Notes under the pieces: generated by a model | Seen by the model: only the letters and a program-made list of their open reading frames with translations | Told to the model about the DNA's origin: nothing | Databases searched by the model: none | Position numbers and translations under genes: made by a program | Shown: positions 3,289-42,288 of the stretch, piece by piece | How positions within the stretch are numbered: the stretch's first letter is position 1 | How the letters are laid out: every line of letters starts with the position of its first letter | NCBI RefSeq assembly: GCF_009914755.1 | Contig: NC_060940.1 | Reading direction: 5' to 3' (one strand) | DNA: 64,000 nt | Source of the DNA: the human T2T-CHM13v2.0 reference genome, Homo sapiens

Positions 3289-3921
3289 TGATCCACCCGC
3301 CTCAGCCTCCCAAAGTGCTGGGATTACAGGCATGAGCCACTGCGCCCAGCCACGCCTGACTAATTTTTATATTTTTACTGGAGAGGGAGTTTAGCCATGT
3401 TAGCCAGGCTGATCTTGACCTCTTGACCTAAAGTAATCCACCCACCTCAACCCCCCAGAGTTCTGGAATTACAAACGTCAGCCACCTCGCCCAGCCCAGA
3501 TTGTCATCTTTGGAAATGCACTAAGCCCAGCCAACAATCAAGGGAGGGGACTTAAGCTCCATTTCCTGGAGGGGGAAGTGTCCGCACATACTGTTTAGAA
3601 TTCCTCTTAAGGAAGATTTGTCCCTTCTCCAACATTTATGTATTCAGTTATTTGTATCAGCTTGGACTCATGGATATTTATTTTGTTATCTGGGTTATAA
3701 TCCCGACCACTGGCTTCCAAGGCAGGACCTCAGCTCTGAGGATCAGTTTTCTTTGTAACTGGCATTTCTGACTTCAAGCATCTGCTGCCCAAGGCCATTG
3801 GCTCTGGACCAGGCCTCCATCTCCCCAGGGACAGAGTGGAGTGATGGGGACACTGGGAAGGGAGGTTGTTGGGTAGCAGTAATAGAGGTCATGGTTGACA
3901 TAATAGGACTTTTTTTCCTGA

Positions 3922-4215
<294 letters not shown>

Positions 4216-4439
4216 TAGTAGAGATGGGGTTTCACCGTGTTAGCCAGGATGGTCTTGATCTCCTGACCTCGTGATCCACCCGCCTTGCCTCCCAAAGTGC
4301 TGGGATTATAGGCGTGAGCCACCGCGCCTGGCCTCTCTCTTTTATTTTATTTAATTTGTTTATTTTTTATAGTGATGAGGTCTCGCTATGTTGCCCAGGC
4401 TGGTCTCGAACTCCTGGGCTTAAGTGATCCTCCCGCCTT

Positions 4440-6090
<1,651 letters not shown>

Positions 6091-6232
6091 GAAAGAGCCC
6101 AATTTACGTATTTCACGATTCCCTTCTTGTTACAGCTTAACGAGATTTTTTTATTTTCCTGACTTTTCGCTTTGGAGAATTAGTCAATAGTTTAGGTCTG
6201 TCTTGTTCGTTTACTATGGGGTTTGAATTTGA

Positions 6233-6513
<281 letters not shown>

Positions 6514-6665
6514 TGATCCGCCCGCCTCGGCCTCCCAAAGTGCTGGGATTACAAGCGTGAGCCACCGCGCCCGGCCCCTTTGGGGCCCTTTTGTACAGCT
6601 CAGAGTTGGCCTGGCTGCAGGGCTGGGACTATGGAATGGCAAGGAGGTGCCTCAGGTGCCAAATA

Positions 6666-6742
6666 TTAGGTTGGTGAAAATTAATTGCGGTTTTGTCATT
6701 GAAAGCAATGGCAAAACCGCAATTACTTTTGCACTAACCTAA
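6666..6742. mobile_element. MADE1 (Hsmar1-derived MITE)
   Basis: About 77-bp palindrome TTAGGTTGGTG...AATTGCGGTTTT / AAAACCGCAATT...CACTAACCTAA flanked by TA (6664-65 and 6743-44). Confidence 0.9.
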
Positions 6743-6999
6743 TATAAGGAGGCGTGCAGTCTGGGGGTCAGAGTGAGTGTGGAGGTCTCGGAGAATGGCT
6801 GCTGGCCTGGAGGAGGCTGCTAGGTCTGGGTCCCTGCCAGCCTTGTGGGGACCAACTGCTGTATCTTGCAGGAATTTGCACGCTGGGTATGCAAGAGGCT
6901 TCATCTTTTTTGGAGTCTGGGAGCGCTGCAGTGGCAGAACCGACACGGCGGGAGGCGCTAGAGGACCCGGGGTGGACTCGGACGTGGGGTCAGGGAACC

Positions 7000-7330
7000 T
7001 GGCATTTATTCCTGCCCGGACCGCCCACTCATGCTGCGGAGTGTGGGAGGCGTGGGGAGATCGGCCGCCAGAGGGACGTGCGCCGTAGCCAATCAGCGTG
7101 TGAAGCAGGGCGCTATGTGGTTGGGGCCTCCCGTAACTCTTTACGGCCCCAGAGTGGCCCCCAGGTCCCCGGCATCCCCACATCGCCCTGTGAGGCAGAT
7201 GAGCAGAGCCGGAAGGGCCGCACGGGAGGAACAGGGGTTGGCTTGTCCGGAGGCGGACGGATAACGCGACCCCGATCCCTGCGGTACTCTGCAGTCATGT
7301 GACTCGCCGCCTGGCGCATTTCTTCAAGTG
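7000..7330 (+). promoter_or_regulatory. CpG-rich internal/alternative promoter of FLYWCH2 with CCAAT box
   Basis: Local CpG enrichment, GCCAATCAG at about 7088 and ETS-like CCGGAAG at about 7209, lying 0.6 kb upstream of a good internal exon. Confidence 0.6.
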
Positions 7331-7858
7331 CCCACCCCCTCGAGAAGGTGCCCCTGGGGTGGGGGCTTCACATCTGCTTTTGTTTAGTGGTCAGAGGACG
7401 ACAGAGGGAAGCTCTCAGGACAAGGCCCCCAACCCTGTACTCCAGTCCTGCATCCTTAGGCCCCTCTCATGGACAATAGGGTCTTAGAAAAAGCACCAGG
7501 GTGCTGGGCATGGACCCCTCAGGACAGACGCATTGGGAGGGGTCCAAGGTAACCATGAGAACCTCAAGCCCAGGTTGGGGAATCGGCCCGAGGGGAAAGT
7601 GGGTGTCTCTGGGCCTTGTCCTGCCTGGGTCCTGGACAGGGGGCTAGGTGGCTGCCCAAGCTGCAGTCTTGTGTCTAGGCTAAAACTGTAAGCTGGGAAA
7701 GACCCCATGGTCTGCCCACCACCCAGTCGACCCCCAAAAGACAGAAAGGCCACCCCACACTGGCCTGGAGCCCCAGTCCTGAGGTGCTGCAGCACCAGTG
7801 TGGGGTGGCCCGGCACTTGCCCCTACAGGGTTACAACCCATCCTTTCTGCTTCTCCAG

Positions 7859-7959
7859 GCCAGAAGCCAAGGAGTCCTCAGTGACCGTGGGATCCACAAC
7901 ATCTCCACATCGCTGTCCCCACCCAGCCAGGGCAGCGCCAGCACTAGCTCAGACGCAAG
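7859..7959 (+). other. FLYWCH2: FLYWCH2 5'-UTR exon (non-coding)
   Basis: Acceptor cctttctgcttctccAG (7857-58) and donor AAG|gttggt at 7960; a homologous exon-like segment exists at 41429-41522 in FLYWCH1. Confidence 0.6.
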
Positions 7960-9088
7960 GTTGGTGTGAGAACCAGTGGGTGTGGCCAGGCGCGGTGGCT
8001 CACGCTTGTAATCCCAGCACTTTGGGAGGCTGAGGCGGGCAGATCACGAGGTCAGGAGATCGAGACCACGGTGAAACCCCGTCTCTACTAAAAATACAAA
8101 AAATTAGCCGGGCGTGGTGGCGGGCGCCTGTAGTCCCAGCTACTCGGAGAGGTTGAGGCAGGAGAATGGCATGAACCCGGGAGGCGGAGCTTGCAGTGAG
8201 CCAAGATCGTGCCACTGCACTCCAGCCTGGGCGACAGAGCGAGACTCCGTCTCCAAAACAAACAAACAAAAAGAACCAACGAGCAGAGGAGCATGTGGGC
8301 CTTCAGACAGGGATGTGGCTGGATCTGGTTGTCCCACCTGCCAGGGCCAGCTGCAGTGCTATGGTCTGCAAAGTGCTGGCAGGTGCCTGGCCCATGCTCC
8401 CTGTGACAACACAAACTGAGCTAATGTCCCCAGAGTGTTTAGCTCTGATGCTTGGTGCCCAGGGACACTGATGTCTGTTAACATGGACAAAGTACACCAG
8501 ATGCTGTGTGGTCATGGGCTCTGTGTCCACTCCATCTCTGCCACTCTGTGGCTGTGTGGATCACCCTGGCATGTCTCAGTGTCCTCAACTGTGACTGGGT
8601 CCATAAGAACAGCCTGCTGTCATAACAGGGGTGGGAGGTGGGACTGGAAACAGTCCTCAGGGTGGAAACCCTTCGTCCGTGCTCAGCATGTGAGAGGCCC
8701 ATTGGTAGTGGCTGAGTTCTTAGTCCATTAGTCATTCTGATGGCCCCTTGTGGAGGGTGTTTACTGTGCACCTTTTCCAGATGGGGAAAGTGGGGTTGGA
8801 TGGGGCTGACGTACCCAAGGCTGCCAGGAGAGGAACTGGCAGAGCAGAAGCCTAGTTCCATCAGGCCCCCTGTCAGTCTTGGCCCCAGCGAGCAGTGAGG
8901 CAGCCCCATCTGCCCCACCTCCCTCCCAGATCCACGTCTAGAGCCTCCCAAGGGCTTCCACCACTGACGGGATTTTGCTTCCTTCCTTAGGACGGAACCG
9001 CTGGACTCCAGGTTCCTTGCCTGGGAGTAGGAGAAATCCACCTGCTGGGGGCTGAGTGTGGCCTGAGGGACAGGCCCTGGGTCCCGGG

Positions 9089-38480: not shown

Positions 38481-38764
38481 GGGGCCCCAGGCCAGGGAAC
38501 TTTGGATCAAAGTGGGAGACCAGTGGGAACTGGAGCTGCAGCATGTGAGGTGGGGGTGAGGACGCTGAAAATGTCAGGGACTGCAGTCTCGATTCCAGGC
38601 TGAGAGGTGGGAAAGACCCCACCATCTGCCCACACTCAGTTGCCCCAAAAAAGCCCCACCCCACACCATGACTGCCACTGACTGCCCCCAGGTCCCTGCC
38701 CCATTCCCCATTATTTGCCCTTTCTGCCTCTCCAGGCTGGAACCCGTGGTGACCACGGGATTAA

Positions 38765-40265
38765 GTTAGAGCCTGTACAGAAAATCTAACTATGCTATTT
38801 CAAACAATAGAACAATTCTGCCCATGGTTTCCAGAACAAGGAACTTTAGATCTAAAGGATTGGGAAAAAATTGGCAAAGAATTAAAACAAGCAAATAGGG
38901 AAGGTAAAATCATCCCACTTACAGTATGGAATGATTGGGCCATTATTAAAGCAGCTTTAGAACCGTTTCAAACAGGAGAAGATAGCGTTTCAGTTTCTGA
39001 TGCCCCTGAAAGCTATGTAATAGATTGTGAAGAAGACAAAGGGACAGAATTCCAGAAAGGAATGGAAAGTTCACATTGTAAGTATGTAGCAGAGTCTGTA
39101 ATCGCTCGGTCAATGCAAAATGTTGACTTAAACAAGTAAGGGTTATTTGCCTCAGGGCCTGGGAAAAAAATTCATGGACCCAGGAACCACCTGCCCGTCT
39201 TTTAATTCAATTAGACAAGGCTCTAAAGAGCCCTACCCTGACTTTGTGGCAAGATTGCACGGTGCCGCTCCAAAATCTATTACAGATGATAACACCCAAA
39301 AGGTTATTGTAGAATTAATGGCCTATGAAAATGCAAATCCGGAATGTCAATTGGCCATAAAGCCATGTTGACTACAATCAATTACAGGAGGTAACATATC
39401 CTGAATCATCAAAATTGGGGGGAAAAGTGGGGCCATCAGAGTCTAAACCACAATGGCCAACTCCTCCTCCCGTGGTTCAGATACCTGTAACATTACAACC
39501 TCAAATGCAGGTTAGACAAGTACAAACCCCAAGAGAATATCAAATAGAAAAGGATAGTCTCTATCTCGGCAATGCCAATCCAGATACAGTATCCACAATA
39601 TCAGCCAGTAGAAAATAAAACCCAACCGCCATTAGCTTATCAATACTGGCTGCCAGCCGAGCTTCAGTATTGGCTGCCTCCAGAGGTCCAATACAGACCT
39701 CAAGTGGTGTGTGCCATGCCAAATTGCACGGCATCGTACAAGCAACCCACGGCGGTGGTGTTTAATACGTCAGCACCACAGGGCGCGGCGCTGTGTCCTC
39801 ACCCGCCCACTATGAGACTTAATCCAACAGCACCACCTAGTGGACAAGGTAGCACACTGCACGCGGTCATTGATGAAGCTAGAAAACAGGGAGATCTTGA
39901 GGCGTGGCAGTTCCTGGTAATTTTACAATCGGTACCGGCCGTGGAAGGGGCTCCAGCAGGAGCACCTGTGGTGGCTAATGCTAGATATGAACGCTTCACC
40001 ATGAAAATGTTAAAAGACATGAAGGAAGGAGTTAAACAATATGGACCCAACTCACCTTCTATGAGAACATTATTAGATTCCATTGCTCCAGCAGGAGTTG
40101 ATGTAGTTACAGAATATGTGAAGGCTTGTAATGGGATTGGAGGAGCCATGCATAAAGCTATCCTAATGGCTCAAGCAATGACTGGGGTTGCTTTAGGAGG
40201 ACAAGTTAGAACATTTGGGGGGAAATGTTATAATTGTGGCCAAATTGGTCGTCTAAAAAAGAATT
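38765..40265 (+). mobile_element. gag: HERV-K(HML-2) gag remnant, truncated and rearranged
   Basis: MA (IEQFCPWFPEQGTLDLKDWEKIGKELK), p15 (IQYPQYQPVENKTQPP), CA pieces (KDMKEGVKQYGPNSP; RQGSKEPYPDFVARL MHR) and NC knuckle (KCYNCGQIG); frameshifts and stops throughout. Confidence 0.95.
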
Positions 40266-40341
40266 CCCCGGCTGGCTCAGTCAGTAGATCATGAGACTCT
40301 TAATCTCAGGGTCGTGGGTTCACGCCCCACACTGGGCGCCA
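40266..40341 (+). tRNA. tRNA-Lys(CTT)-derived full-length copy with encoded CCA (non-functional, retroviral primer copy)
   Basis: 73 nt + CCA; anticodon CTT at 40299-301; 8 differences from recalled tRNA-Lys-CTT; B box damaged (TTCAC for TTCGA); its 3' 18 nt form the PBS of the adjacent LTR. Confidence 0.9.
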
Positions 40342-40343
40342 GG

Positions 40344-41327
40344 TGAAGGAGGCCTGCCGCTCCACACCTATGGATATTTCTCGTCAGGTGGAGATGAGAC
40401 TGATAAAAGAAATAAGACACAGAGACAAAGTATATAGAAAACAGTGGGCCCAGGAGATGGGCACTCTATGTGCGAGGACCCGCACTGGCGCTGGTCTCTG
40501 AGTTCCCTCAGTATTTATTGATGACTATTTTTACTATCTTGGCAAGGGGAGTGTGGCAGGGCAACAGGGTGATGGTGGGGAGAAGGTCAGCAGGGAAACA
40601 TGTGAGCAAAGGAATCTGTATCATGAAGAAGTTCAAGGAAAGGTACTGTGTCTGGATGTGCATGTAGGCCAGATTTGTGTTTCACTTCACACAAACATCT
40701 CAGTGTAGCAAAGAGTAACAGAGCAGTATTGCTGCCAGCGTATCTTGCCTCCAGCCACAGGGTGGTTTTCTCCTATCTCAGAATAGAACGAATGGTCGGC
40801 TTTACACTGAGACATGCCATTCCCAGGGACGAGCAGGGGACAGAAAGCTTCCTCTTACCTCAACAGCAAAGAGGTTTCCCTCTTTCACTCCTCCTCCTCA
40901 GCACAGACCCTTCACAGGTGTCAGGCTGGGGGATGGTAAGGTCTTTCCTTTCCCATGAGGCCATATCTCAGGCTGTCTCAGTGGGGGGAAACCTTGGACA
41001 ATACCTAGGCTTTCTTGGGCGGAGCTCCCTGTGGCTTTCCACAGTGCATTGTGTCCCTGGTTAATGGAGAATGGCAGTGACTTTTACCAGGCATACTGTC
41101 TGCAAACATATTGTTAACAAGGCACATCCTGCACAGCCTTAAATCCATTAAACCTTGATTCAGTACAGCACATGTTTCTGTGAGCACAGGGTTGGGGTTA
41201 AAGTTACAGATTAACAGCATCACAAAGCAGAGCAATTTTTCTTCGTACAGATCAAAATGGAGTTTCTTATGTCTTCCTTTCCTACATAGACACAGTAACA
41301 ATCTGATCTCTCTCTCTTTTCCCCACA
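40344..41327 (-). mobile_element. HERV-K(HML-2) LTR5 (older LTR5B-like), full length
   Basis: Minus strand TGTGGGGAAAAGAGAGAGAGATCAGATTGTTACTGTGTC...GGCAGGCCTCCTTCA, 984 bp, followed by cc-TGGCGCCC PBS. Confidence 0.92.
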
Positions 41328-42288
41328 CAAAAAGCCCCACCCCACACCATGACTGCCACTGACTGCCCCCAGGCCCCCACCCCAGCCCTGTGCTGGTTCC
41401 CCATTATCTGACCTTTCTGCCTCTCCAGGCTGGAACCCGTGGTGACCTCAGAATTCTCCAGACACCACCACAGCCCCGTCCCCGACCAGCCGAGGCAGCC
41501 ACAGCAACAGCTCCGGCACAAGGTGGCTGCCACTGTGGGGCCCTGGTATCTCCTGAAGTGGGGGTGGCCTGGGGCCTCCAGGCTAGGATAGGGACTGGGT
41601 CTGCCTGAGCCCAGAAAGGGCTTTCTGCCTCCCAGGCCGTGATGTGGTGCCGTCCTCTGGAAAGGGCTCTGCGTACCAGGCCCACATGCCTGAGACAGGT
41701 GCCTGGCGTCCTGGTGAAGCACATGGTTTCCAAAAAGGTCCTGACAAGTCCCTGGGCATCTGAGCAGAAACGGGTCTCAGCTTCCCGCCTCTTCAGCCTC
41801 AAGTGTATCACAGGTGTCTGTGCCTCACTATCCTCGTCTATAACTGGGTCAATAAGAACGTTCTGCCGTCATAATGTAGGGACTGGAGGGGGGACTGGAA
41901 ACGCGGGTGGAAACCCTTCGTCCGTGCTCAGCATGTGGCTGAGCTCTTAGTCCATTAGTCACTCTGATGGCCCCTTGTGGAGGGTGTTTATTGTGCACAT
42001 TTTCCAGATGGGGAAAGGGGTTGGATGGGGCTGACGTACCTAAGGCTGCCAGGAGAGGAACTGGCAGAGCAGAAGCCTAGTTCCATCAGGCCCCCGGCCA
42101 GTCTTGGCCCCAGCGAGCAGTGAGGCAGCCCCATCTGCCCCACCTCCCTCCCAGATCCACGTCTAGAGTCCCCCAAGGGCTTCCACCACTGACGGGATTT
42201 TGCTTCCTTCCTTAGGACGGAACCACTGCACTCCAGGTTCCTTGCTGGGTGCTGAGCGTGGCCTGAGGGACAGGCCCTGGGTCCCGGG

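What the first reader, a model, noticed from the sequence alone, without database searches (positions are those of the whole stretch)
38765..40341. gag lies inverted relative to its LTR and joins the tRNA 5' end by microhomology
Seen: gag is on +, the LTR on -. gag stops in the first NC zinc knuckle (CTA AAA AAG AAT TCC CCG) exactly where the tRNA begins. Recalled gag continues AAT TGC CCA and the tRNA starts GCCCGG, so they share GCCC. Inference: a single nascent DNA strand ran U3-R-U5, PBS, whole tRNA, then jumped via GCCC onto viral RNA and continued as minus-strand synthesis towards the gag 5' end. This explains the whole LTR-tRNA-inverted-gag layout without a later genomic inversion.
Basis: partly seen in the sequence, partly recalled or inferred. 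Interest (0 to 1): 0.8.

Follow-up and report, generated by a model that had tools for sequence, protein, structure and literature searches.

The report
Fossil of a failed HERV-K reverse transcription
A 2.6-kb insert in a FLYWCH1 intron looks like a dead-end product of HERV-K reverse transcription: one LTR, a full copy of the tRNA primer and a scrambled, backwards piece of gag, pasted into the genome as a single unit without the usual integrase footprint.

Summary
Sense gag (38764-40265) abuts a complete tRNA-Lys(CTT) copy with CCA (40266-40341). Its last 18 nt are the primer-binding site (PBS) of an antisense, complete HML-2 LTR (40344-41327).

First, a ~107-115-bp target duplication, unique in the genome, brackets the whole 2.57-kb unit. 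So it was one insertion, not a later inversion and not a standard integrase event. Second, gag is not collinear. Its blocks run A-C'-B-D, with three more junctions at 2-3-nt microhomologies, a 16-17-nt re-copied stretch, and about 240 nt missing.

The gag/tRNA junction shares GCCC, checked against 4 of 4 proviruses and 3 of 3 tRNA genes; the window has C at the first position.

The genome holds parallels. Six more LTR5-type loci continue the PBS into the tRNA. In one, 28S rRNA is joined to tRNA base 1 through 8 shared nt. At 7q34/7q22.2 an LTR-PBS is joined to antisense pol through 7 shared nt.

Best reading (0.75): plus-strand strong-stop DNA read through the primer tRNA, switched onto plus-sense gag template, and was captured largely or wholly without integrase.

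The locus is catalogued (16p13.3) only as an LTR-less gag fragment. It is a new variant of a known aberrant pathway.

The parts
38648..38754 (.). Left copy of the target-site duplication (host intron DNA). It may extend 8 nt further, to 38762.
   Evidence: It matches 41329-41447 with 5 substitutions in 107 aligned positions plus one 12-nt gap. The next 8 nt match at 5 of 8. The flank occurs only twice in the genome, and both copies are here.
38764..39135 (+). gag block A (matrix, Gag_p10 part). It starts roughly 80 nt into gag and is antisense to the LTR.
   Evidence: Pfam Gag_p10, E 1e-22. It is 92-94.5% identical to proviral gag, for example C9:149.02 and C22:23.98. The upstream end was mapped.
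39136..39366 (+). gag block C' (piece of the capsid C-terminal domain), displaced to lie between A and B.
   Evidence: Pfam Gag_p24_C, E 9.5e-25. It maps to L002 2467-2700, downstream of block B in collinear proviruses. Junction microhomologies are CAA on the left and AT on the right.
39367..40088 (+). gag block B (from the end of matrix into the start of capsid). Its first 15 nt, together with the shared AT, repeat the end of block A: 39365-39381 against 39120-39135.
   Evidence: Maps to L002 1501-2241. The duplicated stretch is visible. PDB 8c9m_A residues 189-341.
40089..40265 (+). gag block D (end of capsid to the first NC zinc knuckle). It ends at the last Cys codon of the knuckle.
   Evidence: Maps to L002 2714-2901. 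PDB 8c9m_A up to residue 560. TC microhomology with the end of block B.
40266..40341 (+). Reverse-transcribed mature tRNA-Lys(CTT), bases 1-76 including CCA. 40324-40341 is the PBS. Base 58 (40323) reads C instead of A.
   Evidence: Rfam RF00005, 36.1 bits. Aligned to 3 tRNA genes.
40342..40343 (-). 2-nt spacer between the U5 end and the PBS.
   Evidence: The same 2-nt spacing is seen in other HML-2 copies.
40344..41327 (-). Complete HML-2 (LTR5-type, old lineage) LTR, from its first TG to its terminal CA.
   Evidence: 40 other full or partial copies scored, best 91% identity. Tree.
41329..41447 (.). Right copy of the target-site duplication, possibly extending to 41455. 41328 is one extra or mutated base.

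Best explanation
The insert is a dead-end product of HML-2 reverse transcription, fixed in the germline of an Old World primate ancestor.

1. Plus-strand strong-stop DNA started at the U3 boundary and copied U3-R-U5 and the 18 nt of primer tRNA that make the PBS (inferred from the canonical pathway; the structure fits).
2. The RT did not stop at methylated A58. It copied the rest of tRNA-Lys(CTT) to base 1 (shown by the sequence).
3. The run-off 3' end paired through GCCC with the NC-coding part of a plus-sense gag template. It then continued as antisense gag (junction shown; template inferred). Genomic RNA is the most likely template, because it is still uncopied at that stage.
4. Three more switches followed at TC, AT and CAA. 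They skipped about 240 nt, copied one block out of order and re-copied 16-17 nt (shown).
5. After second-strand synthesis the 2.57-kb linear DNA had only one LTR end. It was inserted between nicks about 110 bp apart in a FLYWCH1 intron, by host repair or at most a one-ended integrase reaction (duplication shown; route inferred).
For: - Full tRNA with CCA, contiguous with PBS, spacer and U5.
- The LTR is complete to its first TG.
- GCCC is shared between gag (4 of 4 proviruses) and the tRNA 5' end (3 of 3 genes).
- Blocks A and B overlap by 16-17 nt. A single molecule that broke and was rejoined cannot give this.
- None of the 150 listed matches (of 179 found) continues collinearly across a block junction, apart from the locus itself; a few run 10-16 nt past one on local similarity. 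So the rearrangement is private to this locus.
- A duplication of about 107 bp of unique host DNA flanks the whole unit.
- Parallels in the same genome:
  - A pattern for U5+PBS+T-arm hits 8 places at 7 loci, with 0 control hits.
  - At C19:38.12, 28S rRNA is joined to tRNA base 1 through 8 shared nt (11 of 12). This shows a switch from the tRNA end onto an RNA.
  - At C7:143.07 and C7:106.06, LTR-PBS is joined to antisense pol through 7 shared nt.
- A58 is changed in 3 of 7 independent tRNA copies. It is the only site outside CpGs and the isodecoder pair changed that often (P about 0.001 for a pre-specified site; about 0.04-0.07 over the 52 sites counted).
- Published parallels (passages read): read-through of the primer tRNA in HIV-1 proviruses (PMC12657518) and m1A58 as the stop signal (PMC8599865).
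Against: - Microhomologies of 2-4 nt are also what microhomology-mediated end joining leaves.
- The first base of the shared GCCC is C in the window, so the match is 3 of 4 as it stands today.
- The template (RNA or DNA) and the insertion route cannot be read from the sequence.
- The LTR end is flush at TG, as after integrase processing. Integrase may therefore have joined that one end.
- The LTR falls in a clade made only of solo LTRs. None of the 13 sampled proviral LTRs lies in it, so common origin of LTR and gag is shown only as compatible.
- The duplication differs by only 5 of 107 positions. By the 0.24-0.45 %/Myr rates quoted in PMC3228705 this gives 10-20 Myr, younger than sharing with rhesus implies. 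With 5 events the interval is wide.
Confidence: 0.75

Rival explanations
1. Several separate retroviral cDNA fragments were captured together at one chromosome break and ligated by microhomology-mediated end joining. The fragments would be a read-through strong-stop DNA plus pieces of gag cDNA. No single strand would have been synthesised continuously.
For: - Junction microhomologies are short (2-4 nt).
- The long target duplication shows host repair acted at the site.
- 8-9 nt at the gag end may be filler.
Against: - All four gag blocks have the same orientation.
- The tRNA is joined exactly at its base 1.
- A and B overlap by 16-17 nt, so at least two source molecules would be needed.
- The A/C' junction sits in a 25-nt stretch of 16/25 similarity, as in copy-choice recombination (my reading of the sequences).
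- The rRNA-tRNA and LTR-PBS-pol junctions elsewhere use 7-8 nt at natural strand ends.
Confidence: 0.17
2. A normal provirus integrated here and was later inverted and deleted by genomic rearrangement.
For: HML-2 proviruses are known to undergo rearrangements. PMC3228705 mentions such rearrangements in general terms (passages read).
Against: - A provirus contains only the 18-nt PBS, not the other 58 nt of the tRNA or its CCA.
- There is no 5-6-bp duplication. Instead a duplication of about 110 bp brackets exactly this unit.
- No pol, env or second LTR is present in the window region read.
Confidence: 0.03
3. Two unrelated insertions landed side by side: an LTR-plus-tRNA product and a gag fragment. 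Alternatively, an L1-driven retrocopy of a chimeric RNA.
For: LTR+tRNA units without gag do exist elsewhere, at C5:26.30 and C19:55.01.
Against: - One duplication flanks both parts.
- They abut exactly at tRNA base 1, with shared bases.
- There is no poly(A) tail and no short L1-type duplication.
- The other locus with a long duplication has no T-rich nick site.
Confidence: 0.03

Closest known systems
HIV-1 defective proviruses with tRNA-Lys3 inserts ('deferred second-strand transfer'; Hardy et al. 2025, PMC12657518, passages read)
   Same: Plus-strand synthesis runs past position 58 of the primer tRNA. The extra tRNA bases mark the junction where the strand switches template.
   Different: - The HIV inserts are 7-54 nt; here all 76 nt are present.
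- HIV products switch onto minus-strand DNA and stay collinear, giving a deletion. Here the switch is onto a plus-sense template, so gag is inverted.
- HIV cases are two-LTR proviruses in somatic cells. This is a one-LTR unit with a target duplication of about 110 bp, fixed in the germline.
Murine leukaemia virus circle with a tRNA between the LTRs (Colicelli and Goff 1986). Seen only as described in PMC12220202; the original is not held.
   Same: A reverse-transcribed tRNA lies next to an LTR end, as a by-product of reverse transcription.
   Different: That was an unintegrated circular DNA from an engineered mutant, with a spurious tRNA-Gly. It had no inverted viral sequence and no chromosomal insertion.
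HML-2 elements at C7:143.07 and C7:106.06. By position these are probably 7q34 and 7q22.2 of PMC3228705 (my matching, not checked by sequence).
   Same: LTR-PBS is followed directly by antisense viral sequence (pol, gag, leader, PBS, 45 nt of U5). The junction is at the 3' end of strong-stop DNA, with 7 shared nt.
   Different: The stop is at the normal 18 nt, with no tRNA read-through. The antisense part is long and essentially collinear.
28S rRNA / tRNA-Lys / U5 chimera at C19:38.12 (L038)
   Same: A complete tRNA with CCA is attached to the PBS side of U5. A foreign sense-strand sequence is joined at tRNA base 1 by microhomology. The blocks of that sequence are out of order.
   Different: The acceptor template is ribosomal RNA, not gag. 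Only about 22 nt of U5 remain.
L1-type chimeric retrocopies such as U6-L1 (recalled, not looked up)
   Same: A reverse transcriptase reaches the 5' end of one RNA and continues on another.
   Different: Those carry poly(A) tails, short duplications and L1 target sites. None of these is seen here.
Strong-stop-DNA model for the origin of tRNA-derived SINEs (Ohshima, Okada and colleagues; recalled). Search one search found no paper on it.
   Same: That model postulates germline insertion of a tRNA-Lys primer joined to U5/R. These loci have that layout (tRNA, then antisense U5-R-U3).
   Different: No sign that any of these units was later amplified. Here the whole LTR is present.

Membership tests
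HERV-K (HML-2) element | LTR of the LTR5 group with TG..CA ends | tested here: met
   The 984-bp LTR is 82-91% identical to the 40 other copies scored. It lies in a well-supported clade with 11 solo LTRs (99/99).
HERV-K (HML-2) element | PBS complementary to the 3' end of tRNA-Lys, 2 nt after U5 | tested here: met
HERV-K (HML-2) element | Betaretrovirus-type gag | tested here: met
   Pfam Gag_p10, Gag_p24, Gag_p24_C. PDB HERV-K Gag 8c9m_A, E 2.9e-81. 92-94.5% nucleotide identity to proviral gag in block A.
HERV-K (HML-2) provirus made by integrase | Two LTRs in direct orientation, collinear genes, 5-6-bp target duplication | tested here: not met
   One LTR, gag inverted and scrambled, duplication of about 107-115 bp. 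For contrast, the C18:46.28 and C1:39.37 read-through units have 6-bp and 5-bp duplications flush with both LTR termini.
Plus-strand strong-stop DNA with primer-tRNA read-through | U3-R-U5-PBS continues into tRNA bases upstream of position 58 | tested here: met
   52 of 58 upstream bases match the tRNA gene. Normal proviruses score 11-16 of 58.
Plus-strand strong-stop DNA with primer-tRNA read-through | The tRNA is the mature form (CCA present) | tested here: met
   CCA at 40339-40341; absent after 3 of 3 genomic genes.
Plus-strand strong-stop DNA with primer-tRNA read-through | The strand starts at the U3 5' boundary | tested here: met
   The LTR is complete to TG at 41327, and host duplication follows after 1 base.
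Plus-strand strong-stop DNA with primer-tRNA read-through | Misincorporation opposite m1A58 | tested here: inconclusive
   A58 is C here and T at two other loci, 3 of 7 in all. P is about 0.001 for a pre-specified site and about 0.04-0.07 family-wise. The sample is small.
Functional tRNA gene | Intact cloverleaf, no encoded CCA, own flanks | tested here: not met
   ARAGORN finds none. 8 differences from the gene, including stem mismatches. CCA is encoded.
L1-mediated processed or chimeric retrocopy | Poly(A) tail, 7-20-bp duplication, TT/AAAA-like nick site | tested here: not met
   No A tail at either end; duplication of about 110 bp. The nick next to the LTR follows a T run on the - strand, which is weakly reminiscent only.

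The most novel reading that the evidence does not exclude
HML-2 left a small but recurrent class of failed-reverse-transcription fossils in the primate germline, at 7 or more loci.

- These are strong-stop DNAs that read through the whole primer tRNA. Some then primed on whatever plus-sense RNA offered a few matching bases (gag, 28S rRNA).
- They entered chromosomes both with integrase (5-6-bp duplications) and without it (54-bp and roughly 110-bp duplications).
- They may still carry the misincorporation scar of m1A58.
- They are natural examples of the tRNA-plus-strong-stop insertions postulated for the origin of tRNA-derived SINEs.
Probability: 0.45. Interest if true: 0.7.

Novelty: new variant of a known kind. 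Interest (0 to 1): 0.6.

Why it matters
Reverse-transcription errors of extinct viruses are normally invisible, and this locus preserves one base by base.

- **What it records.** It shows that the HML-2 enzyme could run through the tRNA stop signal. It shows where the enzyme switched templates, and that such a one-ended DNA could still reach the germline largely or wholly without integrase.
- **Annotation.** It corrects the published catalogue. The 16p13.3 entry is listed as a 1.5-kb gag fragment with no age, in a paper that mentions seven LTR-less proviruses. The adjacent LTR would count as a solo LTR and the tRNA as a pseudogene.
- **Mechanism.** The parallels found here turn a curiosity into a small class that could be surveyed across primates. 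They may also bear on how tRNA-derived retroposons arise.
- **Host gene.** The event duplicated a FLYWCH1 splice acceptor and brought in an LTR that RefSeq marks as an enhancer.

Tried and rejected
- **ARAGORN** found no tRNA. The Rfam model did.
- **Editing or hypermutation.** I tested whether the higher divergence of block B reflects it. Pairwise spectra against 4 proviruses show no G>A/A>G or C>T/T>C asymmetry. B differs from them by 12.5-16.9%, the same as they differ from each other there (12.6-17.8%). Rejected.
- **Snap-back palindrome at 38755-38758.** Dropped, because these bases may simply be the end of the target duplication (5 of 8 match).
- **L1 endonuclease.** The nick next to the LTR follows a T run, but there is no poly(A). 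The other locus with a long duplication has no such site. Not pursued.
- **C17:44.19.** Its PBS-U5 hit belongs to a different LTR family (65% identity over 429 nt to an HML-2 locus). Set aside.
- **Target duplications at C5:26.30 and C15:93.55** could not be defined.
- **Literature.**
  - Searches for an earlier description of this structure found nothing specific.
  - In PMC3228705, 'inverted' and 'inversion' occur 0 times, and 'tRNA' occurs only in a nomenclature passage and the reference list.
  - I did not see its additional files, Reus et al. 2001, or Olsen and Swanstrom 1985, any of which might describe it.
- **PBS hits.** Of the 57 hits, 30 were inspected, plus C19:38.12 separately.
- **Primate orthologues** are not available in these tools.
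Full report
**What is there**

The window is T2T chr16:2914001-2978000, and the whole genome could be searched. Reading 38500-41600 shows a 2.57-kb foreign unit in FLYWCH1 intron 2. From left to right on the + strand it contains:

| Coordinates | Feature |
|---|---|
| 38764-40265 | gag, sense |
| 40266-40341 | tRNA-Lys(CTT), sense, with CCA; its last 18 nt (40324-40341) are the PBS |
| 40342-40343 | 2-nt spacer |
| 40344-41327 | 984-bp HML-2 LTR, antisense, complete from its terminal CA to its first TG |

- Rfam's tRNA model matches 40266-40338 end to end (36.1 bits against a gathering score of 29). ARAGORN finds nothing.
- Three genomic tRNA-Lys-CTT genes are identical to each other over 73 nt and are not followed by CCA. 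The window copy differs from them at 8 of 73 positions and does carry CCA. It therefore derives from a mature tRNA.
- Pfam finds Gag_p10, Gag_p24_C and Gag_p24 in the + strand frames.
- A solved HERV-K Gag (8c9m_A, 666 aa) aligns up to residue 560, at the last cysteine of the first NC knuckle.

**The gag/tRNA junction**

- In the 4 of 4 proviruses that hold this part of gag (L002, L005, L003, L007), gag continues ..TTGCCCAG...
- The tRNA genes begin GCCCGG. The window reads ..ATTCCCCGGCTGG...
Today's sequence has C at the first of them, either a later change or an error made at the switch.

**One insertion event**

- 38648-38754 and 41329-41447 are direct repeats: 5 substitutions in 107 aligned positions plus one 12-nt gap.
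- The next 8 nt match at 5 of 8, so the repeat may reach 38762/41455.
- A 198-nt query of the left flank finds only these two places in the genome.
- The repeats bracket exactly gag + tRNA + LTR.
- This is a target-site duplication of about 107-115 bp. The three parts therefore arrived together.
- It was not a standard integrase reaction. From general knowledge, HML-2 integrase leaves 5-6 bp, and two related loci below show exactly that.

**gag is scrambled**

Against collinear proviruses the 1507-nt gag stretch falls into four blocks.

| Block | Window | Position in C22 provirus (locus L002) |
|---|---|---|
| A | 38764-39135 | 1145-about 1517 |
| C' | 39136-39366 | 2467-2700 |
| B | 39367-40088 | 1501-2241 |
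| D | 40089-40265 | 2714-2901 |

- All four blocks are sense on +.
- L002 2242-2466 (225 nt) and 13-14 nt between C' and D are absent.
- The junctions share CAA (A/C'), AT (C'/B) and TC (B/D).
- The A/C' junction lies in a stretch where the two source sites are 16 of 25 alike (my reading).
- The end of A (39120-39135) and the start of B (39365-39381) are the same 16-17 nt, so this stretch was copied twice. One molecule that broke and was rejoined cannot give that; replicative template switching can.
- None of the 150 listed matches (of 179 found) continues collinearly across a block junction, except the locus itself; a few run 10-16 nt past one on local similarity. The scrambling is private to this insert.

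**Reading along the - strand**

This is the only polymerisable direction, because nothing can be added to a tRNA's 5' end. The nascent strand would have run as follows:

1. U3-R-U5, the PBS, and the complement of the tRNA down to base 1.
2. Antisense D.
3. A jump over 473 nt, then antisense B.
4. A jump back to antisense C'.
5. A jump to antisense A, re-copying 16-17 nt.
6. An end roughly 80 nt into gag.

**Same lineage for LTR and gag?**

- Block A is closest to the proviruses at C9:149.02 (94.5%) and C22:23.98 (93.6%). These two also rank second and fourth of the 17 proviral 5' LTRs compared with this LTR (84.4% and 83.4%; C6:42.73 scores 84.35%).
- In a tree of 30 LTRs this one sits in a star-like clade of 11 solo LTRs (88-91% identity to it, picked as its best hits). 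Its terminal branch is 0.057. None of the 13 proviral LTRs falls in that clade.
- The ratio of LTR distance to gag-A distance between this element and 13 proviruses is 1.84-2.76. That lies inside the 5-95% range of 78 provirus pairs (1.37-2.81).
- The refuter 'different ages' is therefore not met, but the test is weak.
- Published data: Subramanian et al. 2011 (PMC3228705, passages and table rows read) list this locus in their Table 2.
  - The entry reads 16p13.3, K(OLDAC004034), chr16(+) 2976160-2977661 (hg19), oldest common ancestor 'Rhesus', age N/A.
  - The span equals the gag part only.
  - The text has 0 occurrences of 'inverted' or 'inversion'. It mentions tRNA only in a nomenclature passage and the reference list.
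- Age:
  - The 5/107 divergence of the duplication gives 10-20 Myr by that paper's rates, with a wide error.
  - The LTR branch of 0.057 gives roughly 25-47 Myr at half those rates (my arithmetic).

**Parallels in the same genome**

A pattern requiring the tRNA T-arm next to PBS and U5 finds 8 places at 7 loci, with 0 in the reversed-pattern control. A looser PBS+U5 pattern finds 57 places, control 0. I inspected the 30 fetched loci:

- 20 continue into the normal leader.
- 7 rows (6 loci) continue into tRNA, matching 48-52 of 58 bases. Normal leaders match 11-16 of 58.
- 3 are odd.
- The other 27 were not inspected, except C19:38.12.

The read-through loci:

| Locus | tRNA extent | Other features |
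|---|---|---|
| C5:26.30 | from base 1 | host flank follows directly |
| C19:55.01 | from about base 5 | 54-nt target duplication with 2 mismatches |
| C15:93.55 | from about base 12 | duplication not definable |
| C18:46.28 | bases 7-76 | 53 nt of the U5 end + tRNA + full LTR; GGGAAG duplicated flush with both LTR termini |
| C1:39.37 | from about base 12 | two and a half tandem units of tRNA + part-LTR; CACTT duplicated flush with both termini |
| C19:38.12 | from base 1 | see below |

- **C19:38.12.**
  - Rfam finds LSU rRNA (162 bits) and tRNA (49.6 bits) on one strand.
  - Against an rDNA unit, the rRNA runs into tRNA base 1 through 8 shared nt (11 of 12).
  - Its blocks are again out of order.
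  - This shows that the enzyme, on reaching the tRNA's 5' end, could switch onto an RNA by microhomology.
- **C7:143.07 and C7:106.06.**
  - These are two of the three odd loci; by position they are probably 7q34 and 7q22.2.
  - Both have LTR-PBS stopped at the normal 18 nt.
  - The PBS is joined through 7 shared nt (GTGGGGC) to antisense pol.
  - At C7:143.07 the antisense part runs on through gag, leader and PBS into 45 nt of U5; the stretch fetched at C7:106.06 ends within gag.
  - This is the same layout as here, without read-through.
- **C17:44.19.** The third odd locus belongs to another LTR family.

**A possible scar of the tRNA modification**

- Position 58 of the tRNA copy is C here and T at C19:38.12 and C19:55.01.
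- That is 3 of 7 independent copies changed. No other site outside CpGs and the isodecoder pair reaches 3.
- With the observed non-CpG rate of 0.028-0.036 per copy-site, P is about 0.0007-0.0014 for this pre-specified site, and about 0.04-0.07 over the 52 sites counted.
- m1A58 is the normal stop for plus-strand strong-stop DNA (PMC8599865, passages).
- The result is suggestive, not proof.

**Mechanism**

- Timing (inferred from textbook reverse transcription). Strong-stop plus DNA is finished while most genomic RNA is still uncopied. A strong-stop DNA that cannot make the proper second transfer has intact plus-sense gag RNA at hand.
- Read-through makes the strand non-complementary to its normal acceptor (PMC8599865; PMC12657518).
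- The sequence shows the read-through, the four switch points, and the single insertion with a long duplication.
- The sequence does not show whether the acceptor was RNA or plus-strand DNA, how the second strand was made, or how the DNA entered the chromosome.
- The flush TG end would fit integrase joining that one end. The gag end must have been joined by the host.

**Rivals**

- End-joining of separate cDNA pieces at a break explains the short microhomologies. It does not readily explain the uniform orientation, the use of tRNA base 1, the 16-17-nt re-copy or the parallels (0.17).
- A later inversion of a normal provirus cannot supply 58 extra tRNA bases with CCA or the bracketing duplication (0.03).
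- Two adjacent insertions, or an L1 retrocopy, are contradicted by the single duplication and the lack of poly(A) (0.03).

**Comparison with what is known**

- Read-through of the primer tRNA is documented in HIV-1 defective proviruses: 7-54-nt inserts in 44 sequences, all described as deletion junctions (PMC12657518).
- It is also documented in a cloned MLV circle (Colicelli and Goff 1986, seen only through PMC12220202).
- Inverted products primed by strong-stop DNA were, as far as I recall, described for avian retroviruses in the 1980s. Searches did not retrieve that paper.
- What differs here:
  - a complete tRNA copy;
  - a switch onto a plus-sense template, giving inverted gag;
  - further copy-choice scrambling;
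  - insertion with a duplication of about 110 bp;
  - fixation in the germline;
  - a handful of sister loci.
- Seven literature searches found no description of this locus's structure or of such HERV fossils. The library lacks most subscription journals, and I did not see supplements.

**Verdict**

- It is a new variant of a known aberrant pathway, of moderate to good interest (0.6).

Noticed in passing
window 38735-38754 and 41428-41447: The target duplication includes the 3' splice site (..ctctccag|gctggaac..) of the alternative FLYWCH1 exon annotated at 41429-41522. The left copy therefore places a second, identical acceptor directly upstream of gag.
   Followed up: no
window 40755-41264: A RefSeq 'enhancer' feature lies wholly inside the antisense LTR (40344-41327).
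   Followed up: no
L038 (G000:C19:38119352-38122385), about 1207-1545: A chimera of 28S rRNA pieces (out of order), a complete tRNA-Lys with CCA, and about 22 nt of HML-2 U5. The rRNA/tRNA junction shares 8 nt (11 of 12).
   Followed up: partly
L093 (G000:C7:143063000-143072500) 3945-8963; L094 (G000:C7:106058500-106066500) 3772-7829: Two loci share one junction: LTR-PBS (normal 18 nt) joined through 7 shared nt to antisense pol, then gag; in L093 also leader, PBS and 45 nt of U5, while L094 runs out within gag. By position they are probably 7q34 and 7q22.2, the latter listed as human-specific in PMC3228705. A shared junction suggests a duplication of one event.
   Followed up: partly
L037 (C18:46.28), L032 (C1:39.37), L035 (C19:55.01), L033 (C5:26.30), L034 (C15:93.55): Five further LTR5-type units carry near-complete primer tRNA after the PBS. 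Two are mini-elements with both LTR termini and 6-bp or 5-bp duplications (integrase-type). One has a 54-nt duplication. They fall in at least three LTR lineages (4 label changes on the tree).
   Followed up: partly
window 40323 and the same tRNA position in L038 and L035: tRNA position 58 (m1A in the mature tRNA) is substituted in 3 of 7 independent retro-copied tRNAs (C, T, T). No other site outside CpGs and the isodecoder pair is changed that often.
   Followed up: partly
window 39548-40270: A 241-codon frame without stops runs through the second half of block B, across the B/D junction, to the tRNA. The rest of gag is broken by stops and frame shifts. Probably chance.
   Followed up: no
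tRNA positions 29 and 41 in the seven loci: Two tRNA-Lys-CTT isodecoders served as primers: A29/T41 in four loci including this one, and G29/C41 in three.
   Followed up: no
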